Source of the DNA: a virus
DNA: 64,000 nt
IMG/VR virus record: IMGVR_UViG_3300031669_000002
Location: 64,001 to 128,000 of that record
Direction: 5' to 3' (one strand)
In this document: positions 26,386-41,846 of the stretch, piece by piece
Position numbering within the stretch: position 1 is the first letter of the stretch
How the letters are laid out: every line of letters starts with the position of its first letter
The notes under the pieces: generated by a model
Told to the model about the DNA's origin: nothing
Seen by the model: only the letters and a program-made list of their open reading frames with translations
Database searches by the model: none
Position numbers and translations under genes: made by a program

Positions 26386-27141
26386 ATGACCACAAAGACG
26401 ACAACAATAGATTTTTTACCTACTTATCTTTATATTAAACGACACCCTGTTACTGGATTATTGTATTTAGGCAAGACATCTGGATCAGAACAATACTTGC
26501 TTAAAGAATATTTGGGATCAGGCAATTATTGGGAAGATCATTTAAGAATACACGGTGAAGAAAATATAGAAACTCCGTGGTATTGTTTATATACAGAAAA
26601 AGAAGAATTGGTTAGGTTCGCATTGATGTTGTCTGAACAGATGAATATTGTAAAGGTTAAAGATGAAAATGGTAAAAAGATATGGGCAAACCTAAGACCT
26701 GAAAATGGATTAGATGGAGGAGTTAAAGGTGTTAAATGTGGACCACAGTCAGAATCACATAAGATTAACAATGCAGCAGCTAGAAAAGGGAATAAATATG
26801 GCCCACAAAAACTCCCAAGGAAAGCAGAACATAGCGCCAATATTAGTAGTTCTAACTTAGGCAAGAGTAGAAATAAAGGAGTAAAACAATCACTAGATCA
26901 CGCCAGCAAAACAGCAGCCAAAAAAGGAAATACTTATGGAAAAGCAAATAAAGGACAAATTCCTTGGAATAAAGGAATAAAGATCCAATATAAGCCACAA
27001 TCTGCAGAAGTAATAGAAAATCGAACCGGCAAAAAGCGAGGCAAATATAAAGAACTAATTTGTCCACAATGTGCTAAGGTGGGTCACGGCGGCGCAATGA
27101 AACAACATCACTTTGATAATTGTAAAAAGAAAACATTATGA
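26386..27141 (+). CDS. GIY-YIG homing endonuclease
   Basis: PTYLYIKRH..TGLLYLGKT, YLGSG.YW, WANLRPENG.DGG and terminal CPQC...HFDNC; TAAATA at 26351-26356; overlaps the start of the giant gene. Confidence 0.87.
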   Translation: MTTKTTTIDFLPTYLYIKRHPVTGLLYLGKTSGSEQYLLKEYLGSGNYWEDHLRIHGEENIETPWYCLYTEKEELVRFALMLSEQMNIVKVKDENGKKIWANLRPENGLDGGVKGVKCGPQSESHKINNAAARKGNKYGPQKLPRKAEHSANISSSNLGKSRNKGVKQSLDHASKTAAKKGNTYGKANKGQIPWNKGIKIQYKPQSAEVIENRTGKKRGKYKELICPQCAKVGHGGAMKQHHFDNCKKKTL

Positions 27142-30100
27142 TCATAAAAACCTTGTCGTACCTGCCCTTAATATTCCAGACTCCTGCCAATCAGAAGTTC
27201 TTGAACGCAACCCTGGACCAGCTAGTTACACAACCTGATTTTAAACGCGTCGATGGCTACATAGGTCGAAAATTTGCGCCAACATATCGCGCAGGCGACA
27301 ACTATGTTCCTGAACCAACAGCAGAGCGTCAAAACTACCAGCTTGAACCAAGTGTAGTTAGTTTAGATATCAACGGCGAGACACAATTTTTTAGCACATA
27401 TACTGATCTATTACAGCAGATAGAATATTATGGTGGTATAACGAATAACCACACACGGTTATTCGATCAAGAATCATATACGTTTGATGGCAAGATTGAC
27501 TTTGATAAGTTTGTAAACTTCAGTGAATACTATTGGTTACCAACTGGGCCAGATCCAGTAAACGTATATTCGGTTTCGTCTAACCTAAGACAAACATTTG
27601 ATATTACTCGTAACCTGGCAGTTAATGCTTACACTATTTCCGGATTTAACAATTCCCCAAATCCAGAAATTATTCTAGCGCGAGGAGGAGTATATCAGTT
27701 TGTAGTAGATCAGCCAGGATTTAACTTTTGGATTCAAACTGACATAGGTACATCCGGCACAAAACTAACTCAGCCAAATATTAGCACACGTCAAATTCTT
27801 GGAGTAGATAATAACGGAACAGATAATGGAACAGTTACTTTTACCGTTCCGCAAGCCGACGCACAAGATGGCTTTATAACTATGCCGCTAGTGCAGTCGA
27901 TAGATTTTGCAACAAATCTACTATACTCTGACATACAAGGTAAGAACCTAGCAACATTTGCTGGCATTGACGGAGTAAGCAGCAATCTACCAGGAAAGTA
28001 TTTAATTTTTACATCAAATGATACAAATGCTTCAAATTGGGGAAACACAGATCCGTCACATTGGAACGGAATTTGGCAAATACAGCTTTCCGGAGCAAAT
28101 ATTAACTTGGTATGGATAAAAGATATCCCAGTAGGAGAAAAAGTTTTTATTAAGTCAGGAAGCACTTATGTAAACTTAGAATTCTATAAGATTACTACTG
28201 GTCAATTAGAACAAGTACCTCCGGCCTCTGCTTCGCTTAATATATTGTACTATGCTGACTCGACAAATCCAGGGTTTTACGGCACTATTCGAGTAGTTGA
28301 TCCGTTAACATTTCAAATTGATGTAGAGACTGAGATATTAGGTAAGCAGTCATACACTAGCCCAAACGGCGTCGTATTTACTAACGGATTAAAGATAACA
28401 CTCAACAACACAGTTACTCCGGCATCTTATGCAGGAAATACATATTATGTTGAAGGTGTTGGTTCAAGCATTAAATTATTGCCAGTAGACTTATACGGCG
28501 GCACATCAACACTTGATTATATTGTGATTAATAGGTCAAGCATTGATGGCAATAGCTGGTCTAAAACTAACTCTTGGTTTCACTCTGATGTAATTGCTGC
28601 AACGTCAACATATAATAATACTGTTCCGCTATTAGATCAACTTACTAGAGCATCAAGGCCAATTATTGAATTTAGTCCTAATCTACAACTTTTCAATTAT
28701 GGACGAGTTGAGAAACCATATGTAAACATATTAGACTTTACTTCTACCGATGCTTTTACTCAAGTGCAAGGGTCTGTTCTTTTTGATCCTGCTGTATATA
28801 AAACAGGCGAAACAATAATTTTTGCCGCCGATCAAGACCCAAATGTTAAAAATAAAATTTATAACATTGATATTGCAACTATTGCGGGCGGGGCATACAC
28901 TGTTTCTGAGTCGTCGCCTACAGCTATTGGTTCTCTTGTTGCAGGCGAAACGTATGTTATTGATATCTTAGGAACTACAAATTGGGCAGCCGTCGGTGCC
29001 GCCGTTCCGACACCTGGTATTCCGTTTGTTGCGACTGGACCAGGAACCGGTACAGGTATTGCTTATCACATTATCTATACTCGCCCAGGACATTTTGTTA
29101 GCGGGCAAACATATCAGATTACAGATGTCGGTACAATGAACTGGTCTCTTCTTGGCGTAAGTTCGCCAACAGTTGGTTTACAATTTATTGCATCTTTTAT
29201 AGGTAACGACGCAACAACGGGAACAGGCGCAGCACAGTTCGTAACACAACCAGAATCATTTATAAATTTAACAGAAGTATTAAACGGTGACGTGTTAGCA
29301 TATGATGTTGTTATACCAAATACGGGTATGCTAGTAAAACTAAACCCATCTAATAACTCACAGTTCGATACAAATACATCATTCAGAACAATTGATTATT
29401 CGTTGCTGCCAGCAGATATCGGAACACTATCATTGACTACTGTTAATGGTTACGGTACGGCAGGAACACTAATCAAAGGGTATCAGTATGAAATTAAGTA
29501 TGCGGGCACAACTGATTTTACATTATATGGTTCACCAGATAATTTAGTTGGCACTATTTTCACTGCAACAAATACTAACCTACCAACTACTGGTCAGCAA
29601 ACAGGCATTGCACAACTTTTAAATATAGTAGATTCTGGTTTTGTGTCGGGAAAGAGCTATTGGTTCAATGGAATCAATTGGGTTCAATCGCAGCAAAAGA
29701 CTTCTACAAATCAGTCGCCATTGTTTGATATAGTAGACAATAATCTTATTAGTCTTGGAGATCCAACTATTTATTATGCAACCTCGTTTAAAGGTTGCCC
29801 TATCTTCACATACTTACAGGGGACAGGAACAGCAGACCCAGCATTAGGATTTCCGATATCATATAGAAATATTAACAATGTAGGAGATATTGAGTTTACT
29901 AATAATTATGACACTGATACTTTTAACCAACTTGTTGGATTAACTACGGTTACGAATAATGTCAACTCTGGTTTTATACCAGTTATTGTTGATCGAACCA
30001 CAATAATCAAAGAGAATATGTGGGTTAAGAAATTTGAGAACTCTAAGCAGTATCAAATATTCTCAGCAGTATATGACGGATCTACATCAAACTTTCAGAT

Positions 30101-33100
30101 TGATATTTTACCTGACCAGTCACAGTTTATTCCTAATCTAAAAGTATATGTCAATAGTATTGAACTAGTGTCAACTTCTTATTCTATTACTACTGTAGGT
30201 ATAGTAAACTACTTGACAATTTCGTCAACACTTTCCGTAGGCGACGAGATTGATATATTAATCTACTCAGCTACGCAGGTATCAACTGCTGGGTACTATG
30301 AAATACCAAGTAACTTGGATTACAATGCACTAAATGAAAATTTTACAGTGCTTACGCACGGACAGTTTAGAAATCACGTAGCAACCATTGCGTCTAATAC
30401 TACAGAGATATTAGGCAAGGTTCCAGGACAAAGCAATCTTAGAGATCTATCAGTTAAAACTTTTGGTGGAAGTATTTTACAACATAGTTCTCCGTTAATC
30501 TATAGCGAACTATTCTTGCTTAATAAAGACTTAAACTTTATGGATGCGAGTACCTACGTCCAACTAGAATATAATAGATTTAAGAACAAATTCTTAGAAG
30601 CGTTCCCATCAGTAGTAGATGCCGGAATTTTAGACCCCGCAGTCGCAGTGGATACTATTCTGCTACAGTTGAATACAGTAAAGAATGACAAATCGCCGTG
30701 GTACTACAGCGATATGGTACCTTACGGTGGAAACAAAGTAACGACTACATACACTGTATTAAATGTAGATATAACTGCTTATGAAATCGCAAGTATCTTC
30801 AATGACAATATATTAGGCAATAAGGCTATTTTAGTGTATCTGAATGGTAGTCAGCTAGTAAAAGGCATCGACTTTACTTTTGACCAAACTCGCCCCGCAA
30901 TCAATTTTATTAAATTGCTTAACTATGGCGACACAATAACTATCAATACATACAGCAATACAGATGGTAATTTTATACCAGAGACTCCAACAAAACTTGG
31001 TCTATATCCAAAGTTTACGCCAGAAAAGTTTGTGGATAGCTCGTATCAATCATCTCCTATAGTAATTCGCGGCCACGACGGAAGCATTACGCCGGCATTT
31101 GGGGATATGCGCGATGAACTACTATTGGAACTTGAAAAGCGTATCTACAACAATATCAAAGTAGAATACACTACTTCAAAGTTTGATCTGTTTAAATTTA
31201 TCCCAGGTAAATTTCGCGAAACAGAATATACTAAGGCAGAGTTTGACCAAATCTTATCTAGAAGCTTTATGGAATGGATAAGCAACAACAGAACTGATTA
31301 TTCAGATAATCAGTGGTTCCAGAGCGGCAACCAATGGTCATGGACATATAGTAGCTTCAAAGATAAAATAGATGGCTCTTATCTTCCTGGATATTGGAAG
31401 GGAATTTACAAATATTTCTACGACACAGATGCACCTCATCTAAGAGCATGGGAAATGCTTGGATTTAGTGAAATGCCAGATTGGTGGATAGACACTTATG
31501 GTCCAGCACCTTATACGGCAGGAAACAAAGTTCTATGGGATGATCTAGAATCAGGAACTATTGTACAAGGCACAAGAGCAGGAACATACTCACAGTATGC
31601 TCGCCCAGGACTGAGCACAGTGATACCAGTTGATGTTTATGGAAACTTATTATCACCTAACGAATTTTTAGTAACTGGATTTAACGGGTCAACTGTTGAC
31701 GATACTTTTGTGTTTGGAGATAACGGCCCAGTTGAGAATGCATGGAGAACAAGCAGCCATTATCCTTTTGCAGTACAACGAGCAATTGCTCTAATGAAAC
31801 CAGCGTTATATTTTGCACAGCTTGCTAACGTTCAAGACTATAGTAACACAAACGAATTAGGTCAATGGCTTTTCGTAGATAACAATCGTCGAATCACGTT
31901 AAAAACACTTGAGGTAAATGGCGAAGTTATTACGCCGTTAACTGCTACAGCTATTAACCCAACAGGATCAATATTAAGACAGGCAGGATACCTGAACTGG
32001 ATAAGCGACTATGTTGCTGGATACGGAGCATCCAGCCCAACCATGATACACAGTTATCTCGATACTCTTAGTGTTAAGTTAGGATATAGAGCTGCCGGTT
32101 TTACCGACCAGTCATTTATTTCTATCTTTGCAGATCAAGCAAGTCCTAATAGCACAAATAAATCAATTGTTATTCCAAACGAGAACTACCAAGTCTACGT
32201 CCATAAATCAGCTCCTATATCAAGTATAGTATATAGTGCTGTAATAATTGAAAAAACTCCTAGAGGATTTTCTGTAAGCGGCTATAGTACAGAGCAGCCA
32301 TACTTTACTATAATTCCAAGTAACCCAAACAACAATTTTTACACAATCTCGGCTGCAGGGCTAACGGGTGTAATATATAATGACTATCAACCGTTAACCA
32401 TTACAGTGCCGTATGGTCACGAGTTTGTAAATAAGCAGCAAGTAGTTGACTTCTTAACAAGCTACGGCAGATATCTAATTTCTCTTGGGTTTACTTTTAC
32501 CGAAGTAGATCCTGATTTACAGATCGCAAAAGATTGGATTTTAGCCGCAAAAGAGTTCCTAACATGGACACAGCAAGGTTGGGCAGTAGGCAATATCATC
32601 GTAGTTAGTCCAATATCTAATTCTATATCACTTACTGTTAATAATGGTGTAGTAGATGAAATTACAAATTTTCCAAATGGATCTAAAGTAATGGATGTTG
32701 GCTTTAATGTTATTAAGTCTAATCTGTTTACTGTTATAAGAGACACAAGCGAGTTTAACCTAACAACTGCTGCACCAAACATTACAATTGGATTGCTTGA
32801 TGTTGATGTAGTTCAATATGAAAATGCATTAATTTTTGATAACACCACAGTCTTCAATGATGTCATCTACGCTCCGGAATTAGGAAACAGGCAGTACCGA
32901 TTAAAATTAATTGGTGATGTAACAAGTTCTTGGACTGGAGAATTTAATCCTCCAGGACTTATTTACAGTAATCCATCTGTACAGGCATGGCAGCAAGGGA
33001 AAGATTACCGCCAAGGAGATATTGTAGGGTATAACAACTTTCTTTATTCTGCATTGCAGGACATCGATGCAACCAACACATTTAACTACTCTTACTGGGC

Positions 33101-36100
33101 ACAGTTAGATCAAGCAGCATTCAAAACAGGAATGTTGCCTAACTTATCATACAATGCATCTAAGTTTTTAGATATGTATGATGTTGATAACCAAGTTGCA
33201 GATCAAAACATAAACGAATATGCAATGGGATTAATCGGATATCGAGATAGAGATTATTTAACACAGCTCAGAGTAGATACTACTTCTCAAGTTAAATTTT
33301 ATCAAGGTTTTATTCGTGATAAAGGAACAAAGAATGCAGTTAATGCATTAGCAAGTGCTACCTTTGAGAACCTGAACGGCACACTAAACTTTTATGAAGA
33401 GTGGGCATTTAGGGTAGGTAACTATGGGTCAACATTGAGCAATCAATTCTTAGAGGTTCAACTATACGATAATCTTTATAAATATGATCCGATGTCTTTT
33501 GCTTTGTTGAATAATAATGAAACAACAACTGATACGGGTGTAGTTGGTGTGTATGAAAGCGACTTATATAAAAAACCACTTACTTTTACACCCGCAATAA
33601 TTGAGAATAGATCACCAGAGTCAATCTATTCCAGCGACATAGCATCAGCAGGATATGTTAACCTAAACGACGTTGATGCAACAGTGTTTGATATAACAGA
33701 TGCTGCTTCATTGAATGCATTAGTGCCGTCGATTAGTACAGGTTTCAAATTATGGGTAGCAAAAGATAACACTAGTAACTGGAATGTTTATAGATTAGCA
33801 GAAGCATTGGCTAAAGTTATTGATGTATTATACCAATTGAATAACTTTGCTTTGTTTACAACAAGCACGACTCATGGGTTAGTTGCAGGTGATATATTCG
33901 TAGTTAAGGGATTCTCAAGTCTTGTTGATGGATTTTACACGGTAATACGATCAGTTGATGACCAAACAAATAATATCTATACCTTATTTGTTGCAATAAC
34001 AGATAGTTTAAATGCAGCACTTATCGTTACCCCAGAGATTACGGGCGACGGAAACATGTTTAATCTAAGTAGCATGAGAGTTAAATATCAGACTAATATA
34101 TTAGATATAACTCCGGGACTAGGTTGGATAAACAACGATAAGGTATGGATCGACACCAATGATGCAAACTCAAACTGGGCAGTATATCAGAAAACAGACC
34201 CATGGAACTTCGTTGATGCATTAGCACTATACTCCACGCAGATCACAGCAAATGCATTAGTGGGATCTTCAATTGCATCAACGTCTGATGGTCTACTTGT
34301 TGCCATTGGCGCACCAAGTAGTAATTTATTACCAAATGATGGTTCAATAAAAATCTTTACAAGAACACTTGCGGGCAATTATATTCCCGGCAATTCTATA
34401 AATCCTTCTCTATCGCCTAACAGACCATTTATTTCGAATATTACTTTATATAACATACCGTATCTTGGTTCGCCAATACCAGGTACCGCACCATTTAAGT
34501 TAAGTCTGAGTAATCTAGGATTCACTCCAAATCCATTAAACATAGTAACTGTGGTGTGGGATGATATTTGGGTTCCTGGGCTTGTGCCAGATAGCTTATC
34601 TAACCCTGCAGGAATAGGCGTACCATTAATTTCAGGAATACAAAACGACTATGTTATCACATATAACGATCCTGACCCACTATTTTTAGGTCAGACTACA
34701 ATAACTTTTAGAAATAATCCTACATTGCACGGGGCAGCGAGTTCGCTTCGATTTAGACTTGCTGAGGTAGAACCAGAAAAATTTGGTGAATCTCTTGATA
34801 TAAAACAAAATACAATTGCAGTAGGTTCTCCGGGATATAGAGGTGCTGGTCCAAATGAAGGAAGAGTTGCAATCTATAACATCGATTCAACCGGTACTAT
34901 CTCAATGACTCAAAGTATAGATCCAGAATTGTTGAATGCTACCTATAACACTCTTGCTACATATCAATATATTGCAACAGACGATCTTTTTGGTAGTTCT
35001 GTGTCACTAAGTGATGATGCACAGTGGTTATTTGTTGGGTCTCCACACTCACAGTGGAACGGGATTATTGGGTCTGTTTATGCATTTGCTCTTAAAGATA
35101 TCACGTCATCAACACAGACTATTACAACAAGCGGAAATATTACTACTTACCCACTAACGATATCTAATATTAGCAATCAATTAGGCATAACTGTATTGAA
35201 TCAGTTTTACAGTTTAATACCAAACGTCGATTATGTCATTGATATAAACGCAAGCACTATTACGTTTACAAAGAATCCCGCAGGAAAAATTTATCAAGTA
35301 AATCAGGGCCCATATTACGATTTTAATTCGGTTATTGCGCCAAATGATGGTGATTTAGGGGATCAATTTGGATCAGTAGTTAAGTCTCAAGCAGATGGTC
35401 GATATGTAGTAGTTGGAGCTAAGAACAAAACAATAAATGCTCAAGCATCTGTTGGTCAAAGTTATCTATTTACGCGAAGCGTACAAGATATAATTGGTGA
35501 TGGCATAACTTCTTCATTTAACCTGTATCAAGTACCAAACACTCAATCAAATGCTTATGCCTCAACATACTCATTGAGCGGGCAAGAATACACCCAAGTG
35601 TTAGATACAAATACTAGCGTATCTACATACAACCTGACATTTACTGCAAACACAGATGCGATTATTACAGTAACTCCAAATGTTCCGCCAGCATTAAGCT
35701 ATACAATTGATTATAGTACAAACCAGATTATATTTAATACAAATCCGGGTAACATTCAATGCAATATTACTCAGACTATAACATCTACCTATAATTTTGT
35801 ACCTAATGTTACGCCAAATGTTTATTTAAGTGGTAGCACAATAAGTTTTGGCGCAGCTCCAGGAAAGAATTTAGTGCTGCATGTAGAGCTAAACAATTTT
35901 AGTCAAATTCAAACATTTAATTCTAATAATGCACTTCTACTAGATAGCGGAGCAAACTTTGGTAATGCTGTTACCCTATCTTCTACGCTTGATGAAGTTT
36001 TTGTAGGGGCAACCGGAAGCACTTCACAAGATGGTAGAGTCTTTAGATTTACTAATCCAAGTATCACATACAATACAATATTACTTGATTTGGTTCCTAC

Positions 36101-39100
36101 TGCATCAAATATTATTATTAATAACAAGTTTATTGACTTAACTAGCGCCAATGCGAATGTTTATGCAATTTTGTCGACTATTACTAGTGCTAACATTGTT
36201 GGATTATCAAGTTCGATTGAAGGAAATGCAATTAGATTGACCTATAACTCTACAAAAGCCAACGATAGTCTTACCGTATTAGAAACTAACACAGCAGGCG
36301 AAATAGTTTCATTGGGCTCGCCGCTGATCAATACTCAAACTCTTGTTCATCCTGTAATAAGTCAGTATATTTTTAGCAATAGTCAGTTTGGTAGCACACT
36401 TGCATATGATAATGTTTCTGGTACACTAGTTGCGGCTGCATCAAACTCGCCTACAATTGAGAATTTCCAGCTTGACGGGTTTAGCACAACATTTGACGGC
36501 AACTCAACAAGAATATTTGATAAGTTAGACAACACTGGTGCAGTATATGCATTTGAAGAATTATATAATCCACTTAATTCGATTGATGTTCCGTCAAAGT
36601 TTATCTTTACTCAATCGTTCGCGCCAGCAAGCTTAGTAGCAAACATTAATTTTGGCTCGGCGATTGCAATGAACTACAACTCAATATTCATCGGTGCGAA
36701 TAATGCAGATGTTACGCCAGTAGATGCACTTGGTGTGACGGGTAATATAGTACCAAGAGCTGGAAATGTATTTTATTACAGTAATCCAACAGTTACATCA
36801 GCGTGGGGACAAATTCGTCAAGAAGCACCTAAGGTGGATCTTGCTAGTGTCTCAAGAATATTCCTATACGATAGAACATCGCAGGCTATATTATCATCGT
36901 TAGATTATATTGATCCAGCAAAAGGTAAAATTTTGGGTGCTGCTGAACAAGATATTACATTCAAATCAGCGTTTGATCCTGCAAAGTATAATGTAGGCAC
37001 AAATGCTAACACGTCAGTCAGACAAAATTATCATTGGGGGAAAACCCAGGTAGGACAGATATGGTGGGATCTATCTAAGGTACAGTATATAGACTACGAG
37101 CAAGACACACTAAGTTATCGAATTAAGAATTGGGGTTCTTTATTTCCAGGATCTACTATTGAGATAAATGAGTGGGTAGAAAGTAGTGTGTTGCCATCTC
37201 AATATTCGGGAGACGGAACAGTAAAGTATCCAGATAATAGCGCGTATGTTCAATCGACCATGCTAAATTCATCAACTGGCTTTATTGTAACAACCTATTA
37301 TTATTGGGTAACAAATAGAACTACGCTTGACCCTAGTTTAACTTTTAGACGATCAACTGCACTGACTATTGCAAATATGATTAAGTCTCCGGCAACACAG
37401 GGAATACCGTACGCAGCAATCATACAAGATAATGCTCTTGCTATGTATAGCGCAAACCAGTATTTGAATGCAGATAGAACAATCATGCATATAGACTACG
37501 AGAAGTTAGCAAATGAAAATATTATTCACAATGAGTATGAGTTGATACAAGAAAACTCGCCTAATGCAATAATACCATCAGACATAGTAAGCAAACTTAT
37601 TGATAGTCTTACTGGTGCTGATGCATTTGGTAACCCTGTACCAGATGTACAACTTGGTGTAGCAGAACGCTACGGCATAACTATCAGACCAAGACAGACG
37701 ATGTTCATTGACAATCTGACTGCAACAAAAAATATGGTAGAGTTCGCAAATACAGTATTCTTAACATTGCCGGTCGTCGAAGAATTTGATCTAACTAACT
37801 TGTATCTTTCAGATCCTGTTCCAGTTACTTGGGGTAATTTATATCCTGTTGCTTGGAAGATTAATACTCAATATGTAGCAGATGAACTAGTATCGTACAA
37901 CGGAAAAACTTACCTAGTTAAATTTGACCTTAATTCGGGAACATATTTTAATGCTCCGTATTATGCCGAAACAATATTGCCTGATGTATCAGTGTCTACT
38001 CCGATTGAGCTTACCTACTTAGATACCTCGTTGTTGTCTATACATCAAGTTATATTAGTAGAACAAGACTCAAATTACAATAATGGTTGGTCTCTATATC
38101 AATTAGGTATCAATAGAACATTTACTGTTATTAGAACAGAGACATATCAAACTTCTAACTACTGGAGCAAAGTAGACTGGTTTGATTCTACATATGACCC
38201 AACCATTAAACCTACCCATACAGTCGGAACTATTCCTGACATTGGAAATCTAACTTTAGTAAGCGGCGACACAGTATGGGTCTTAAATAACGGCGCAGGA
38301 CTATTCATTGTTTATAAAGTAAACACAGATTTGAGTTTATCACTAGTCGGACTACAACAAGGAACAATACAGCTTAGTGATGCACTATGGAATCACGCTG
38401 CCTACGAAATCGGCTTTGATAACGATAGATTTGATACTGTTAAGTTTGACCTAAACCCAACAACAGAGTTTAGAAATATTCTTTATGCTCTATATAACAA
38501 TATCTTTACAAATAGTCTTGCGGGCGAGTTTAACAATATGTTCTTCATATTGCTTAATTATATTCTTTCTGAACAGAGAACAATTGACTGGGCAATTAAG
38601 ACAAGCTTTGTTTCTGTGTTGCACCAACTTCGTAAACTACTGCAATATCCGAACTATATTGAAGACAACCAAACTTATTATCAGAGCTATATCGACGAAG
38701 TTAAACCTTATCGAACAACAATTCGCGAATATGTCATTGACTATCAAGGCGATGACCTAGTAAGAGTTCACCCAACTGACTTTGATTTGCCACCATATTT
38801 TGACACAGAGTTTAATATGTGGCGTAGTCCCAACGGAGAACACGCTAAGGATACATTGATTTTGTCTACTTATCCGCAGTATGCTGATTGGAATGCAAAT
38901 CATACATATTCTATTGGTAACGTGGCAATAATATCTGGCGGAATAGGATATACAGATCCGCCTGAAATTATAGTAGAAGGCGGAGGTGGTACAGGTGCAA
39001 TACTTCAATCTTCAATAGATTTAAACGGAATAGTAAAGTTTATCAAGGTTGTTAAACCGGGATATGGATATACGACCACGCCGACACTACTAGTAAGAGG

Positions 39101-41846
39101 AAATGGAGTAGATTCGACCGGCGCACAAACATGTAGATTATATCCGCTACTGTCAAATACTTTAGTTAGGGGTATGAACACATCAATTAAATTTGATAGA
39201 GTATCATATTCATCAACTGTCAAACACTGGGCAAAAAATATTACTCTCAACGGAGGAGACATAGTATCATACAACGGCGCAGTTTATACAGTTAATGGAA
39301 ATTCCTCAATTACGACAGGTGTTGTGTTTGAGTTATCTAATTACACACCAACTTCAATAGATACGCTTAACGCAGCAGATAGAGTTAATGCATTCTACGC
39401 GCCGACAGAAGGAATGCCACCAAACATACTATCTAATCTCTTTACTGGTATTGATTATTCTGGAGTCATTGTTGACGGTACAGACTTTGTTCACTATGTT
39501 GACGCAAACGGAATTGAATACACAGTTGATGCACACGGTAATAAATTACCACTTGATTCTAATATCCAGAGTTATTTTGGAGATTCCTTACTAGGAACTA
39601 GACCTCAAGATATTAATATCGACGGCGGACACTTCATTGATACTTGGAATAGTCATGCGCCAGAAGAGCTAGTACCAGGCAGAGTATTTGATACATTAGA
39701 TATTAAGGTATTTACTGCTAACTTGGCTGCCGGACCAACATACTCCGATTCAGTTGGTTACAGAATGTCTAAAGCAATGACAGTAGAATCAAATACTACA
39801 ATAGATGCTTTATTAGCAGTACCGACAACATTTGATACGAATACAACGACACTTGATTTTATAAATCTTGAACTAGCCTGGGAATTTAAACGTATATCAG
39901 CAGCATTGACTACGACACTGGCAAAAGATTTATTCTTAGTTGAGACTGTAGATAAATTACTTGTAGGTGATTCATATACTATTACCTCAGTTGGCAATAC
40001 AGACTTTATCGCATTGGGTGCAGCAAGTAACACTGTCGGAGAAGTATTTACTGCTAACACCGGCATAGTCAACGTGGGAAATCTTGTTTCTGGAATGAGC
40101 TATAAAATTTCAAGCTTAGGCAATACTGATTTTACTTTATCTGGTGCAACAAGTGTTTCTGCTGGACACTTTAATTCTAATACTTATATTATTGAGTCGT
40201 CGGGAGACACCGACTTTATATCTCTTGGTGCAATGGACAACTTACCCGGAACAGTATTTACATACACCGGTGAGTTCTCTACACCTAAAGAATTACTAAA
40301 TGGAAACACATACATCATTAGTCAAACTGGAACAACCGACTTTGTTGCTCTGGGTGCATCAGCAAGTATAGTTGGGCTTCCGTTTATTGCAAATACATCG
40401 GCTATAGTTAATGCAGGAAATCTTACCATTGGTAAGACATATAGTATTATTTCTGCCGGTAATACAGACTTTGTTGCTCTTGGTGCAGCAAGATCTACTA
40501 CAGGAGAATTATTTACCTACGGAGATCAAAAAGTTAATGCAGGTTCTCTTGTAATAAACAAGAATTATGCAATCACTAGTGTCGGTAATACAGACTTTGT
40601 TGCTCTTGGTGCAGCAACTAACACTGTCGGAGAAGTATTTACTGCTAACATCGGCATAGTCAACGCAGGTTCGATTGGGGTTAATACTGCATATAGAATC
40701 ACAGTGCAGGGAAATACTGACTTTGTTGCTCTTGGTGCAGCAACTAACACTGTCGGAGAAACATTTGTATATCAACAAGTTCCAGTCACAGCTGGAAGTT
40801 TTGTAATCGGAAAAACATATACAATCATTAATCCGGGAAATACAGATTTTACTTTAATAGGATCATCAAGTAACTTAGTAGGTACATCTTTTGTTGCTAC
40901 AGGTACAGGAAATGTAGGAGAGACTGGCGTAACACTTGGACCAAGGATGTTAAGAGCAGGATCATTTGTGGTAGGTAAGGCGTATATTATCGTATCTCTG
41001 GGGAATACTGATTTCACTGCGGCTGGTGCATCTTCTAACACAGTAGGAACATCTTTTTTCGCAATAAATGCAGGTGTTGGTACAGGATCAGTTGATCCAA
41101 ATACTGGTTCAGGAATAGTAGACCCAAGTGCAGGTACAGGCATAGCTGATCCTAATTCGGGAACAGGAATAGTAGATCCATTTAACGGTTCCGGCATTGC
41201 AAGTGGACCAATGATCGCTGTCACTTCAAGTTTATTTACTGTAGGAAAGACATACAAGATAAGTTATCCAGGAACGACCGACTTTGTTGCATTAGGCGCA
41301 GCAAGTAACACTGTCGGAGAAGTATTTACTGCTTCCTCAACTGGAACAGGAACAGGAATAGTAGATCCAAATATAGGTACAGGAACTGCATATATTAGAG
41401 AATTTGTTGCTACTTCTTCAGGGTCAGGAACTGGATTAGTTGCTGTTGCAGGAAACGGAACAATATCGCCTATGCAAATTCACGTAACTAACGGCTCTAA
41501 CCTATATTATCCAAATCCACTAAGACAGTCCCCGGGTATTGTTTATATCAATAGTGAGAAGATTATTTATTGGGGATTAGATGCAACTGCGGGAATAATT
41601 ACAAACTTCCGTCGAGGAACATGGGGTACAGGATCAGAGGACTTCTATCCAGCAGGAACGGCGGTAGTTGATGCAAGCGTAAGTCAATTGATTCCAGGAA
41701 ATACACTAACAACATCGTGGCTTGATCTGGCAATTTCCCCTAATCCGCCAGCCGTAATATTAGAAGGAAACGGTTTATTAGCAAGCAGCACGCCACAGGC
41801 ACTCTTCTTGCAATCAAGTCCGGTAAATTTGCCAAGCTTACCCTAA
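27138..41846 (+). CDS. Giant virion structural protein (baseplate/fibre scaffold), 4902 aa
   Basis: Uninterrupted ORF after gp6-like. Contains about seven FG-GAP-like blades (~34250-36700), CBM5/12-like W-x-x-x-x-x-Y-x-x-G-D-x-V motifs and repeated GxTDF modules. Confidence 0.8.
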   Translation: MIIKTLSYLPLIFQTPANQKFLNATLDQLVTQPDFKRVDGYIGRKFAPTYRAGDNYVPEPTAERQNYQLEPSVVSLDINGETQFFSTYTDLLQQIEYYGGITNNHTRLFDQESYTFDGKIDFDKFVNFSEYYWLPTGPDPVNVYSVSSNLRQTFDITRNLAVNAYTISGFNNSPNPEIILARGGVYQFVVDQPGFNFWIQTDIGTSGTKLTQPNISTRQILGVDNNGTDNGTVTFTVPQADAQDGFITMPLVQSIDFATNLLYSDIQGKNLATFAGIDGVSSNLPGKYLIFTSNDTNASNWGNTDPSHWNGIWQIQLSGANINLVWIKDIPVGEKVFIKSGSTYVNLEFYKITTGQLEQVPPASASLNILYYADSTNPGFYGTIRVVDPLTFQIDVETEILGKQSYTSPNGVVFTNGLKITLNNTVTPASYAGNTYYVEGVGSSIKLLPVDLYGGTSTLDYIVINRSSIDGNSWSKTNSWFHSDVIAATSTYNNTVPLLDQLTRASRPIIEFSPNLQLFNYGRVEKPYVNILDFTSTDAFTQVQGSVLFDPAVYKTGETIIFAADQDPNVKNKIYNIDIATIAGGAYTVSESSPTAIGSLVAGETYVIDILGTTNWAAVGAAVPTPGIPFVATGPGTGTGIAYHIIYTRPGHFVSGQTYQITDVGTMNWSLLGVSSPTVGLQFIASFIGNDATTGTGAAQFVTQPESFINLTEVLNGDVLAYDVVIPNTGMLVKLNPSNNSQFDTNTSFRTIDYSLLPADIGTLSLTTVNGYGTAGTLIKGYQYEIKYAGTTDFTLYGSPDNLVGTIFTATNTNLPTTGQQTGIAQLLNIVDSGFVSGKSYWFNGINWVQSQQKTSTNQSPLFDIVDNNLISLGDPTIYYATSFKGCPIFTYLQGTGTADPALGFPISYRNINNVGDIEFTNNYDTDTFNQLVGLTTVTNNVNSGFIPVIVDRTTIIKENMWVKKFENSKQYQIFSAVYDGSTSNFQIDILPDQSQFIPNLKVYVNSIELVSTSYSITTVGIVNYLTISSTLSVGDEIDILIYSATQVSTAGYYEIPSNLDYNALNENFTVLTHGQFRNHVATIASNTTEILGKVPGQSNLRDLSVKTFGGSILQHSSPLIYSELFLLNKDLNFMDASTYVQLEYNRFKNKFLEAFPSVVDAGILDPAVAVDTILLQLNTVKNDKSPWYYSDMVPYGGNKVTTTYTVLNVDITAYEIASIFNDNILGNKAILVYLNGSQLVKGIDFTFDQTRPAINFIKLLNYGDTITINTYSNTDGNFIPETPTKLGLYPKFTPEKFVDSSYQSSPIVIRGHDGSITPAFGDMRDELLLELEKRIYNNIKVEYTTSKFDLFKFIPGKFRETEYTKAEFDQILSRSFMEWISNNRTDYSDNQWFQSGNQWSWTYSSFKDKIDGSYLPGYWKGIYKYFYDTDAPHLRAWEMLGFSEMPDWWIDTYGPAPYTAGNKVLWDDLESGTIVQGTRAGTYSQYARPGLSTVIPVDVYGNLLSPNEFLVTGFNGSTVDDTFVFGDNGPVENAWRTSSHYPFAVQRAIALMKPALYFAQLANVQDYSNTNELGQWLFVDNNRRITLKTLEVNGEVITPLTATAINPTGSILRQAGYLNWISDYVAGYGASSPTMIHSYLDTLSVKLGYRAAGFTDQSFISIFADQASPNSTNKSIVIPNENYQVYVHKSAPISSIVYSAVIIEKTPRGFSVSGYSTEQPYFTIIPSNPNNNFYTISAAGLTGVIYNDYQPLTITVPYGHEFVNKQQVVDFLTSYGRYLISLGFTFTEVDPDLQIAKDWILAAKEFLTWTQQGWAVGNIIVVSPISNSISLTVNNGVVDEITNFPNGSKVMDVGFNVIKSNLFTVIRDTSEFNLTTAAPNITIGLLDVDVVQYENALIFDNTTVFNDVIYAPELGNRQYRLKLIGDVTSSWTGEFNPPGLIYSNPSVQAWQQGKDYRQGDIVGYNNFLYSALQDIDATNTFNYSYWAQLDQAAFKTGMLPNLSYNASKFLDMYDVDNQVADQNINEYAMGLIGYRDRDYLTQLRVDTTSQVKFYQGFIRDKGTKNAVNALASATFENLNGTLNFYEEWAFRVGNYGSTLSNQFLEVQLYDNLYKYDPMSFALLNNNETTTDTGVVGVYESDLYKKPLTFTPAIIENRSPESIYSSDIASAGYVNLNDVDATVFDITDAASLNALVPSISTGFKLWVAKDNTSNWNVYRLAEALAKVIDVLYQLNNFALFTTSTTHGLVAGDIFVVKGFSSLVDGFYTVIRSVDDQTNNIYTLFVAITDSLNAALIVTPEITGDGNMFNLSSMRVKYQTNILDITPGLGWINNDKVWIDTNDANSNWAVYQKTDPWNFVDALALYSTQITANALVGSSIASTSDGLLVAIGAPSSNLLPNDGSIKIFTRTLAGNYIPGNSINPSLSPNRPFISNITLYNIPYLGSPIPGTAPFKLSLSNLGFTPNPLNIVTVVWDDIWVPGLVPDSLSNPAGIGVPLISGIQNDYVITYNDPDPLFLGQTTITFRNNPTLHGAASSLRFRLAEVEPEKFGESLDIKQNTIAVGSPGYRGAGPNEGRVAIYNIDSTGTISMTQSIDPELLNATYNTLATYQYIATDDLFGSSVSLSDDAQWLFVGSPHSQWNGIIGSVYAFALKDITSSTQTITTSGNITTYPLTISNISNQLGITVLNQFYSLIPNVDYVIDINASTITFTKNPAGKIYQVNQGPYYDFNSVIAPNDGDLGDQFGSVVKSQADGRYVVVGAKNKTINAQASVGQSYLFTRSVQDIIGDGITSSFNLYQVPNTQSNAYASTYSLSGQEYTQVLDTNTSVSTYNLTFTANTDAIITVTPNVPPALSYTIDYSTNQIIFNTNPGNIQCNITQTITSTYNFVPNVTPNVYLSGSTISFGAAPGKNLVLHVELNNFSQIQTFNSNNALLLDSGANFGNAVTLSSTLDEVFVGATGSTSQDGRVFRFTNPSITYNTILLDLVPTASNIIINNKFIDLTSANANVYAILSTITSANIVGLSSSIEGNAIRLTYNSTKANDSLTVLETNTAGEIVSLGSPLINTQTLVHPVISQYIFSNSQFGSTLAYDNVSGTLVAAASNSPTIENFQLDGFSTTFDGNSTRIFDKLDNTGAVYAFEELYNPLNSIDVPSKFIFTQSFAPASLVANINFGSAIAMNYNSIFIGANNADVTPVDALGVTGNIVPRAGNVFYYSNPTVTSAWGQIRQEAPKVDLASVSRIFLYDRTSQAILSSLDYIDPAKGKILGAAEQDITFKSAFDPAKYNVGTNANTSVRQNYHWGKTQVGQIWWDLSKVQYIDYEQDTLSYRIKNWGSLFPGSTIEINEWVESSVLPSQYSGDGTVKYPDNSAYVQSTMLNSSTGFIVTTYYYWVTNRTTLDPSLTFRRSTALTIANMIKSPATQGIPYAAIIQDNALAMYSANQYLNADRTIMHIDYEKLANENIIHNEYELIQENSPNAIIPSDIVSKLIDSLTGADAFGNPVPDVQLGVAERYGITIRPRQTMFIDNLTATKNMVEFANTVFLTLPVVEEFDLTNLYLSDPVPVTWGNLYPVAWKINTQYVADELVSYNGKTYLVKFDLNSGTYFNAPYYAETILPDVSVSTPIELTYLDTSLLSIHQVILVEQDSNYNNGWSLYQLGINRTFTVIRTETYQTSNYWSKVDWFDSTYDPTIKPTHTVGTIPDIGNLTLVSGDTVWVLNNGAGLFIVYKVNTDLSLSLVGLQQGTIQLSDALWNHAAYEIGFDNDRFDTVKFDLNPTTEFRNILYALYNNIFTNSLAGEFNNMFFILLNYILSEQRTIDWAIKTSFVSVLHQLRKLLQYPNYIEDNQTYYQSYIDEVKPYRTTIREYVIDYQGDDLVRVHPTDFDLPPYFDTEFNMWRSPNGEHAKDTLILSTYPQYADWNANHTYSIGNVAIISGGIGYTDPPEIIVEGGGGTGAILQSSIDLNGIVKFIKVVKPGYGYTTTPTLLVRGNGVDSTGAQTCRLYPLLSNTLVRGMNTSIKFDRVSYSSTVKHWAKNITLNGGDIVSYNGAVYTVNGNSSITTGVVFELSNYTPTSIDTLNAADRVNAFYAPTEGMPPNILSNLFTGIDYSGVIVDGTDFVHYVDANGIEYTVDAHGNKLPLDSNIQSYFGDSLLGTRPQDINIDGGHFIDTWNSHAPEELVPGRVFDTLDIKVFTANLAAGPTYSDSVGYRMSKAMTVESNTTIDALLAVPTTFDTNTTTLDFINLELAWEFKRISAALTTTLAKDLFLVETVDKLLVGDSYTITSVGNTDFIALGAASNTVGEVFTANTGIVNVGNLVSGMSYKISSLGNTDFTLSGATSVSAGHFNSNTYIIESSGDTDFISLGAMDNLPGTVFTYTGEFSTPKELLNGNTYIISQTGTTDFVALGASASIVGLPFIANTSAIVNAGNLTIGKTYSIISAGNTDFVALGAARSTTGELFTYGDQKVNAGSLVINKNYAITSVGNTDFVALGAATNTVGEVFTANIGIVNAGSIGVNTAYRITVQGNTDFVALGAATNTVGETFVYQQVPVTAGSFVIGKTYTIINPGNTDFTLIGSSSNLVGTSFVATGTGNVGETGVTLGPRMLRAGSFVVGKAYIIVSLGNTDFTAAGASSNTVGTSFFAINAGVGTGSVDPNTGSGIVDPSAGTGIADPNSGTGIVDPFNGSGIASGPMIAVTSSLFTVGKTYKISYPGTTDFVALGAASNTVGEVFTASSTGTGTGIVDPNIGTGTAYIREFVATSSGSGTGLVAVAGNGTISPMQIHVTNGSNLYYPNPLRQSPGIVYINSEKIIYWGLDATAGIITNFRRGTWGTGSEDFYPAGTAVVDASVSQLIPGNTLTTSWLDLAISPNPPAVILEGNGLLASSTPQALFLQSSPVNLPSLP
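39940..41470 (+). repeat. Ten GxxYxIxxxGxTDFxxxGAxxNxVGxxF modules plus a 27-bp DPxxGxGIV tandem run
   Basis: 55 nt with 2 mismatches at 40020-40074 vs 40611-40665; 36 nt identical at 40020 and 41298; 9-aa repeats at 41079-41210. Confidence 0.92.

What the first reader, a model, noticed from the sequence alone, without database searches (positions are those of the whole stretch)
39940..41470. Matryoshka protein: recursively nested domain insertions whose closing strands balance like brackets
Seen: three stand-alone copies near 28920-29620 show that the full module ends with a GTGxA strand. In the C-terminal array, units 1-7 lack that strand, and unit 2 breaks earlier, after GATS. Units 8 and 9 are complete. 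Four orphan closers follow (DPNTGSGIV, DPSAGTGIA, DPNSGTGIV, DPFNGSGIA), then complete unit 10, then DPNIGTGTA, IREFVATSSGSGTGLV (the missing half of unit 2) and AGNGTI. That gives seven open units and seven closers in last-in-first-out order. Near-identical DNA between units indicates recent growth. Inference: each domain is inserted in a loop of the previous one, giving an out-and-back, possibly branched stalk up to seven levels deep, unlike ordinary tandem repeats.
Basis: partly seen in the sequence, partly recalled or inferred. Interest (0 to 1): 0.8.

Follow-up and report, generated by a model that had tools for sequence, protein, structure and literature searches.

The report
Russian-doll nested domains in phage protein
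The tail end of a 4,902-residue baseplate protein of an uncultured giant phage is built from ten copies of one 46-residue module, seven of them interrupted by the next and finished in reverse order on the way back. This self-nesting is solved so far only for cyanobacterial RNA polymerase, where a 2026 survey counts six levels.

Summary
Window 39948-41465 (residues 4271-4776 of the 27138-41846 gene) reads NM N NM NM NM NM NM F F c c c c F c mc c. That is seven unfinished units, three complete ones and seven orphan end-pieces. The single two-strand piece sits exactly where last-in-first-out order puts the partner of truncated unit 2.

The module is a 46-residue unit that neither Pfam nor PDB sequence search recognises, and it is common in phage structural proteins. 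Homologues obey the same grammar, at depths of 9 (P0010) and about 17 (P0005), and every mixed array I checked by eye is last-in-first-out.

A split-chain ESMFold2 test of units 1-3 against unit 10 plus the last three end-pieces scored ipSAE 0.85, against 0.00 for the best control. Its contacts join the end-pieces to units 3 and 2 as predicted. A distant homologue (P0007) lacks the array and has the flanks contiguous.

Three things are weaker. AlphaFold2 on the whole array left the end-pieces disordered. Levels 4-7 rest on counting only. DNA identity between units is 41-73%, not "near-identical".

The closest known case is the Si3 insertion of cyanobacterial RNA polymerase. Other readers and follow-up agents of this scan report similar nesting in giant proteins of other phage genomes.

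The parts
27138..41846 (+). Giant virion (baseplate-module) protein gene, 4902 aa (P0001)
   Evidence: ORF. phrog_10938 virion structural protein, E = 0. Pfam CBM_5_12 and FG-GAP_2. Lies between a gp6-like baseplate wedge gene and, further on, the tail sheath gene.
28926..29612 (+). Three stand-alone complete copies of the 46-aa module (residues 597-642, 650-699, 775-825)
   Evidence: HMM hits; coordinates.
39948..40073 (+). Unit 1, unfinished after strand 4 (type NM), residues 4271-4312
40074..40160 (+). Unit 2, truncated after strand 3 (type N, 29 aa), residues 4313-4341
   Evidence: Its strand 2 (GMSY) contacts the FVA of the distal IREFVAT piece in the split-chain model.
40161..40790 (+). 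Units 3-7, each unfinished after strand 4 (type NM), residues 4342-4551
   Evidence: Strand 2 of unit 3 (YIIE) contacts the GTGTA end-piece in the model.
40791..41093 (+). Units 8 and 9, complete (tip of the stalk), residues 4552-4652, with the linker LGPRMLR between them
   Evidence: AlphaFold2 pLDDT 79-96.
41094..41201 (+). Four 9-aa orphan end-pieces (DPxxGxGxx), assigned by last-in-first-out order to units 7, 6, 5 and 4
   Evidence: (27-nt period). The assignment is inferred from the bracket order and was not modelled.
41226..41363 (+). Unit 10, complete; a side branch inside unit 3
41364..41390 (+). End-piece DPNIGTGTA, completes unit 3
   Evidence: residues 4750-4753 contact residues 4350-4353 with expected error 0.4 A.
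41391..41441 (+). Two-strand piece YIREFVATSSGSGTGLV, the missing half of unit 2
   Evidence: residues 4756-4758 contact residues 4319-4322.
41442..41465 (+). End-piece AVAGNGTI, assigned to unit 1
   Evidence: Bracket order. It lies in the modelled interface together with unit 1 residues, but no specific pair was listed.

Best explanation
**What it is.** Residues 4271-4776 form one out-and-back excursion made of ten copies of a 46-residue, five-strand module. The consensus runs AGSFVVG / KTYTI / GTTDFTLIGA / GTTFTA / GTGTA. The fold is probably a small SH3-like barrel.

**How the chain runs.**
- It goes outward through seven unfinished modules. Six lack only the last strand. Unit 2 lacks the last two strands.
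- It builds two complete modules at the tip.
- It then returns and gives each unfinished module its missing strand or strands in reverse order.
- An extra complete module buds off at level 3 on the way back.

**Consequences.**
- Each module is inserted in a loop of the previous one, up to seven deep.
- The two ends of the array meet, so the whole array sits as an insertion in a conserved C-terminal region of the baseplate protein.
- Outer modules can be completed only after everything inside them has been synthesised.

**Likely role (inferred, not shown).** A rigid projecting stalk on the baseplate. Its length can be tuned by adding an opener plus a closer. It would present the tip modules to the host surface.
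For: **Shown by sequence.**
- Seven openers and seven closers. The only two-strand closer falls at the one position that last-in-first-out order predicts for truncated unit 2.

**Shown by comparison with homologues.**
- NM N F mc c occurs twice in P0006 and in P0041 and P0021.
- N F NM F c mc in P0032; NM NM NM F c c c in P0084, P0184 and P0246; N N F mc mc in P0139 and P0063.
- P0010 is 9 deep. Its closers read mc c c mc c mc c mc c, the exact mirror of its openers and not their forward order.
- P0005 has 17 truncated 29-aa units followed by 18 tandem 'xLxRFTATGVGTGTGTA' pieces by my manual count.
- In P0012 a complete unit sits inside the strand 2/3 hairpin of another unit.
- Statistics over 404 arrays are.

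**Prediction.**
- ESMFold2 with chain 1 = units 1-3 and chain 2 = unit 10 plus the last three closers gave ipSAE 0.85 (runs 0.84, 0.87, 0.85). The best of 3 controls gave 0.00.
- That mark was reached by 58 of 80 solved complexes and by 2 of 110 mismatched pairs. These counts hold only roughly, because I used my own alignment.
- The runs agree in at least 90% of contacts, and the partner's pLDDT is at least 85.
- The lowest-error contacts join unit 2 strand 2 to FVA of the IREFVAT piece, and unit 3 strand 2 to GTGTA.
- No PDB sequence relative exists, so a pass from memory is unlikely.

**Consistency.**
- Covariation within 374 complete units couples positions 9/11 with 33, and 13 with 45. These are the same strand pairings as in the model.
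- P0007 lacks the array, and its two flanks are about 18 residues apart.
Against: - AlphaFold2 on the whole 539-residue array (42-row alignment) gave pTM 0.28. It folded units 1, 3, 4, 6 and 7 with pLDDT 70-97 without any distal strand. Unit 2, unit 5 and all orphan pieces stayed below 50.
- Levels 4-7 rest on counting only.
- The split-chain pass is a prediction made with my own alignment, and the tool did not list individual contacts for unit 1.
- Some homologous arrays look unbalanced, for example P0076, P0085 and P0061.
- P0148 is nine closers with no opener. It may be a fragment.
- The fold assignment is weak: the best match is Z 3.7, rmsd 2.6 A, 50 residues aligned.
- No experiment bears on structure or function.
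Confidence: 0.8

Rival explanations
1. This is an ordinary tandem array (beads on a string). The GTGxA strand is dispensable or is replaced by the next unit's AGSF strand. The DPxxGxGxx run is an unrelated glycine-rich 9-mer repeat or a flexible linker.
For: - AlphaFold2 folded the unfinished units confidently without distal strands and left the 9-mers disordered.
- Tandem Repeats Finder sees the 9-mers as a separate 27-nt repeat.
- P0148 shows a closer-only run.
Against: - It does not explain equal counts (7/7 here, 3/3 in P0084, 9/9 in P0010, 17 vs 18 in P0005) or the type-matched mirror order.
- It does not explain why truncated units are followed at a distance by exactly the missing half.
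- The split-chain test scored 0.85 against 0.00 for the best control. That mark was reached by 58 of 80 solved complexes and 2 of 110 mismatched pairs.
Confidence: 0.07
2. The chain does run out and back, but not as discrete nested barrels. The opener array and the closer array each form a continuous layer, and the two layers pack antiparallel as a two-layer beta ribbon or solenoid. In that case 'domains' is the wrong description.
For: - Equal counts and mirror order are also expected for two antiparallel layers.
- In P0005 the two halves are long, uniform tandem arrays of 29 aa and 17 aa.
- DSSP of the AlphaFold2 units shows few regular strands.
Against: - Split units reconstitute the full 46-aa consensus of the stand-alone module.
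- Complete units fold alone with pLDDT above 90.
- The modelled contacts match the covariation seen within single units.
Confidence: 0.08
3. Nesting is only partial. The two-strand piece truly completes unit 2, but the one-strand closers are decorative or flexible, and the NM units are stable four-strand domains.
For: - NM units had high pLDDT without their closers.
- A single short strand adds little interface.
- My covariation test on orphan closers had no power.
Against: - One-strand closer counts match NM counts in independent families (P0084, P0184 and P0246 at 3/3; many arrays of type NM F c).
- The model places GTGTA on strand 2 of unit 3 with 0.4 A expected error.
Confidence: 0.05

Closest known systems
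Si3 insertion of cyanobacterial RNA polymerase beta' (RpoC2): recursively inserted sandwich-barrel hybrid motifs. [quoted passage not shown]
   Same: - Copies of one small beta domain are inserted into one another.
- Several copies are built from distant parts of the chain.
- The result is an elongated excursion whose two ends meet, itself inserted in a loop of a host region.
   Different: - A different module: a 46-aa unit with no Pfam or PDB sequence match.
- A different host: a phage virion protein rather than a polymerase.
- A far more regular 'grammar', with three insertion sites.
- Greater depth: 7 here, and 9 and about 17 in homologues.
- The evidence here is sequence plus prediction, not a solved structure.
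Split domains of RTX adhesins that project ligand-binding domains (AhLap, PMC12077191)
   Same: A stalk domain is interrupted so that the inserted domains stick out from a fibrillar surface protein. This is a plausible functional analogy for unit 10 and the tip units.
   Different: In the adhesins the inserts are of other folds and the nesting is one level. Here the insert is the same module, recursively.
Tandem arrays of small decoration domains on phage structural proteins, such as Ig-like domains (from my own knowledge, not checked here)
   Same: A small beta module is scattered over many kinds of phage tail, fibre and connector proteins.
   Different: Those arrays are contiguous, complete units in series. 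Here 7 of 10 units are interrupted.
SH3-like small barrels (FeoA; C-terminal domain of DtxR/IdeR)
   Same: Weak structural resemblance of unit 9. The best match is 4o6j_A (Z 3.7, rmsd 2.6 A, 50 residues aligned) and the next is 3e19_A (Z 3.3, rmsd 1.8 A, 44 aligned). The size and strand count are similar.
   Different: Z is far below the level that indicates kinship, and there is no sequence similarity. Treat this as a lead only.

Membership tests
Recursive (nested) domain-insertion architecture, A1-B-A2 type | A host domain's sequence is interrupted by a complete copy, and its remainder follows the insert. | tested here: met
   Token order here. Split units in homologues rebuild the 46-aa consensus at three insertion sites.
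Recursive (nested) domain-insertion architecture, A1-B-A2 type | Remainders return in last-in-first-out order, matched by type. | tested here: met
   P0001, P0006 (two arrays), P0010, P0021, P0032 and P0041 are all last-in-first-out, and none of the mixed arrays fits only forward order. P0074 has its two-strand piece in the last-in-first-out position but lacks one end-piece.
Recursive (nested) domain-insertion architecture, A1-B-A2 type | The separated halves come together in three dimensions as one domain. | tested here: inconclusive
   Prediction only. The split-chain model scored ipSAE 0.85 against 0.00 for the best control. That mark was reached by 58 of 80 solved complexes and 2 of 110 mismatched pairs. 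It covers levels 1-3. Levels 4-7 were not modelled, and the whole-array AlphaFold2 run did not place them.
Ordinary tandem-repeat domain array | Every unit is contiguous and complete. | tested here: not met
   Units 1-7 lack the end strand, and unit 2 also lacks strand 4.
SH3-like small beta-barrel fold | Clear structural superposition on solved SH3-like domains. | tested here: inconclusive
   Best match Z 3.7, rmsd 2.6 A, 50 residues aligned. Foldseek found nothing at E <= 0.001.
Sandwich-barrel hybrid motif (the Si3 module) | Sequence or fold similarity to hybrid-motif domains. | tested here: inconclusive
   No Pfam hit on the units, and no such chain among the 23 structural matches with Z >= 2. 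I do not file the module there.
phrog_10938 virion structural protein | Profile match. | tested here: met
   E = 0, 1093 bits, residues 1000-1943. The match does not cover the array.
T4 gp7-type baseplate wedge protein | Homology to gp7 and a position after gp6. | not tested
   Only the position is seen: the gene follows a gp6-like wedge gene (phrog_10646).

The most novel reading that the evidence does not exclude
The 46-residue module is a self-inserting building block with a generative, bracket-like grammar. There are three permitted insertion loops, and each opener needs a matching closer. Phages would use it to grow rigid out-and-back stalks of tunable length and branching on virion proteins, at least 7 deep here and about 17 deep in a relative. 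Growth would require paired duplications of opener and closer segments kept in step by selection for foldability. This would be a distinct class of fibrous architecture and a natural case of strictly last-in-first-out folding.
Probability: 0.45. Interest if true: 0.85.

Novelty: new variant of a known kind. Interest (0 to 1): 0.72.

Why it matters
- **Protein grammar.** Repeat proteins are normally described by tandem copy number. Here the sequence obeys a nested, balanced-bracket rule that repeat finders and domain databases do not capture. The module is absent from Pfam.
- **Depth.** If the structure is as inferred, it exceeds the six nesting levels that a 2026 survey of 2.7 million classified domains gives as its example of complex nesting (PMC13114784).
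- **How phage appendages grow.** It shows how a phage can push a long appendage out of a loop without moving the flanking parts of the protein.
- **Structure prediction.** It is a hard test case: AlphaFold2 on the whole chain failed, while a split-chain test passed.
- **Testable questions.** It allows direct tests of co-translational folding order, of mechanical stability, and of how opener and closer duplications stay balanced.

Tried and rejected
- **AlphaFold2 on the whole array**. The units folded, the orphan pieces and unit 2 had pLDDT below 50, and pTM was 0.28. This gives no nested model. No coordinates or contact map were available to me.
- **AlphaFold2 on P0223**, an N F mc family with 29 rows. 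The array stayed at pLDDT 30-47, so the run is uninformative.
- **Fold and sequence searches for the module.**
  - Foldseek against the PDB found nothing at E <= 0.001.
  - A PDB sequence search found nothing at E <= 1.
  - Pfam did not hit the units.
  - The best ESM Atlas feature score was 0.79, to unnamed viral clusters.
- **tblastn of the array against 50,697 phage records** found no match at 1e-8. P0139 found only five weak hits, among them a cyanophage S-TIM54 virion protein.
- **Covariation test** of whether orphan closers co-vary with their last-in-first-out partners. With 57 pairs, p was 0.2-0.8, so the test had no power.
- **Literature searches** for nested self-insertion in phage proteins found nothing relevant.
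- **Idea that the next unit's AGSF strand replaces the missing strand.** Rejected, because then only one closer per array would be needed, yet closer numbers scale with opener numbers.
- **'Recent growth from near-identical DNA'.** Rejected and on the conserved architecture in the 65%-identical orthologue.

Full report
**Locus.** The finding lies in one ORF, 27138..41846 on the + strand, 4902 aa.
- The protein matches phrog_10938, 'virion structural protein' (E = 0).
- It carries CBM_5_12 and FG-GAP_2 Pfam domains.
- Upstream are baseplate hub and gp6-like wedge genes. The tail sheath gene is downstream.
- The nearest cultured relatives are PA5oct-like and SCTP-2 jumbo myophages, at about 30-37% protein identity.
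- Two orthologues from metagenomes share 93% and 65% identity over the array (P0002 and P0003).

**The module.** The repeat is a sharply defined 46-residue unit with consensus AGSFVVGKTYTIVSVGTTDFTLIGAASNTVGTTFTATGVGSGTGTA.
- Of 233 complete copies picked from homologues, 214 are exactly 46 aa.
- A search of 1.84 billion representative proteins found 771 proteins with the module. A second search found 758 more in the 206-658 aa range, on proteins that also carry tail, connector, tropism-determinant or beta-helix Pfam domains.
- Pfam does not recognise the unit, and no PDB chain matches by sequence.
- I split the unit into three parts: N (strands 1-3, ending ..LIGA), M (strand 4, GxxFxA) and C (the end strand, GTGxA).

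**Observation.** Residues 4271-4776 read NM N NM NM NM NM NM F F c c c c F c mc c. F is a complete unit, c is an orphan C piece, and mc is an orphan M+C piece.
- The single mc (YIREFVATSSGSGTGLV) is second from last, mirroring truncated unit 2, which is second from first.
- The three N-terminal stand-alone copies are complete.
- DNA identity between units is only 41-73%. The best pair is 84% over 100 nt. The 65%-identical orthologue has the same architecture. The array is therefore not recent.

**Comparative test.** They balance, and they do so in mirror order.

| Protein(s) | Token order |
|---|---|
| P0006 (two arrays), P0041, P0021 | NM N F mc c |
| P0032 | N F NM F c mc |
| P0084, P0184, P0246 | NM NM NM F c c c |
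| P0139, P0063 | N N F mc mc |
| P0008 (twice) | NM F F c |

- P0010 has openers NM N NM N NM N NM NM N, then a complete unit, then closers mc c c mc c mc c mc c. That is the exact reverse of the openers and not their forward order.
- P0005 has 17 truncated 29-aa units followed, after a final complete unit, by 18 tandem 17-aa 'RFTATGVGTGTGTA' pieces by my manual count.
- In P0012 a complete unit sits inside the strand 2/3 hairpin of another. That gives a third insertion site.
- A crude automatic tokeniser run on 404 internal arrays of 264 proteins gave Spearman 0.59 (p 2e-38) between unfinished units and orphan pieces. Counts were equal in 38 of 60 arrays with unfinished units, and 281 of 344 arrays without unfinished units had no orphans.
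- Most discordant arrays that I inspected were parsing errors, such as degenerate closers, divergent openers or the unrelated NGGTGxT fibre motif. A few remain unresolved (P0076, P0085, P0061).
- If closer order were random, the mixed arrays listed would all be last-in-first-out with a probability of roughly 1e-5. This is my own estimate from 1/7, 1/126, five factors of 1/2 and 1/3, and it ignores relatedness between arrays.

**Structure prediction.** Results are mixed.
- AlphaFold2 on the whole array (539 aa, 42-row alignment) folded most units (pLDDT 70-97). Unit 2, unit 5 and every orphan piece stayed below 50, and pTM was 0.28. This neither shows nesting nor shows a separate solenoid.
- A second AlphaFold2 job on an N F mc family failed altogether.
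- I then split the outermost three levels into two chains: units 1-3 (residues 4269-4383) and unit 10 plus c mc c (residues 4691-4782).
- ESMFold2 gave ipSAE 0.85 (runs 0.84, 0.87, 0.85). The best of 3 controls gave 0.00.
- That mark was reached by 58 of 80 solved complexes and by 2 of 110 mismatched pairs. These counts hold only roughly, because I used my own alignment.
- The runs agree in at least 90% of contacts, the partner's pLDDT is 86-92 and the other chain's is 89-90.
- The model supports binding; it does not show it.
- The lowest-error contacts pair unit 2 strand 2 (residues 4319-4322) with FVA of the IREFVAT piece (4756-4758). They also pair unit 3 strand 2 (4350-4353) with the end of DPNIGTGTA (4750-4753).
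- All of residues 4744-4779 and the unit 1 residues lie in the interface.
- This is the last-in-first-out pairing, not the forward one.
- In this construct unit 2, disordered in the whole-chain model, belongs to a chain with mean pLDDT about 89.
- Within 374 complete units, covariation couples positions 9/11 with 33 and 13 with 45. This is the same strand neighbourhood as in the model.

**Topology from a homologue.** In the more distant P0007 (4066 aa, same Pfam set), the segments flanking the array align about 18 residues apart and there is no array. The 506-residue array is therefore an insertion into a conserved region, and its two ends must meet. A nested out-and-back build does this automatically.

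**Fold.** Unit 9 of the AlphaFold2 model weakly resembles SH3-like barrels: IdeR C-terminal domain at Z 3.7, rmsd 2.6 A, 50 residues aligned; FeoA at Z 3.3. This is a lead only.

**Mechanism.**
- Supported by sequence and prediction: the chain runs out through seven unfinished modules, makes two complete ones at the tip, and returns completing them in reverse, with unit 10 budding off inside unit 3.
- Inferred: the stalk projects from the baseplate, its length is set by the number of opener-closer pairs, and it serves in host-surface contact or spacing.
- Inferred: growth needs matching duplications of a 126-nt opener and a 27-nt or ~51-nt closer. The two tandem periods found fit this.

**What is known.**
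- Recursive insertion of one domain type into itself is solved for the Si3 insertion of cyanobacterial RNA polymerase. It has eight hybrid motifs, four of them built from distant chain segments (PMC10895346).
- A 2026 survey describes Si3 as a six-level recursive insertion architecture and cites it as its example of complex nesting (PMC13114784).
- RTX adhesins use single-level split domains to project ligand-binding domains (PMC12077191).
- I found no paper that describes this phage module or its nesting.
- Notes from other readers and follow-up agents of this scan report similar nesting in giant proteins of other phage genomes. I did not test those.

**Verdict.** It is a new variant of a known kind. 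The main gaps are the lack of any experimental structure and the unmodelled levels 4-7.

Noticed in passing
window 26386-27141 (+): A 251-aa ORF overlaps the giant gene's start by 4 nt and has no PHROG hit. It is present in the 93%-identical orthologous locus L002 (2249-3004). It is absent from the 65%-identical locus L001, where only small minus-strand ORFs lie there.
   Followed up: partly
P0148 (144 aa): This protein consists of nine tandem DPMGGSGLV closer-like 9-mers with no opener units. It is either a fragment of a deep array or a counter-example to strict balance.
   Followed up: no
P0012 residues ~150-250: A complete unit is inserted in the strand 2/3 hairpin of another unit. This is a third insertion site besides N|MC and NM|C.
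   Followed up: partly
P0007 residues 3652-3810 versus window residues 4153-4860: A distant homologue of the giant protein lacks the whole array. The two flanks are about 18 residues apart there.
   Followed up: yes
window 39921-41537: Method note: AlphaFold2 on the whole chain left the split unit and all closers disordered. A two-chain ESMFold2 run on the outer three levels gave a confident, reproducible interface. Deeply nested repeats may be missed systematically by whole-chain prediction with shallow alignments.
   Followed up: partly
window 40772-41257 (-): A 161-aa antisense ORF lies inside the repeat array. It is probably a by-product of the repetitive coding sequence.
   Followed up: no
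homologues listed: The module occurs on proteins whose precomputed Pfam domains differ widely: PF18454, PF11134, PF05135, PF05100, PF12708, PF13229 and PF21939. By my recollection of Pfam these are tropism-determinant, tail, connector and beta-helix families. It therefore looks like a portable decoration of many virion proteins.
   Followed up: no
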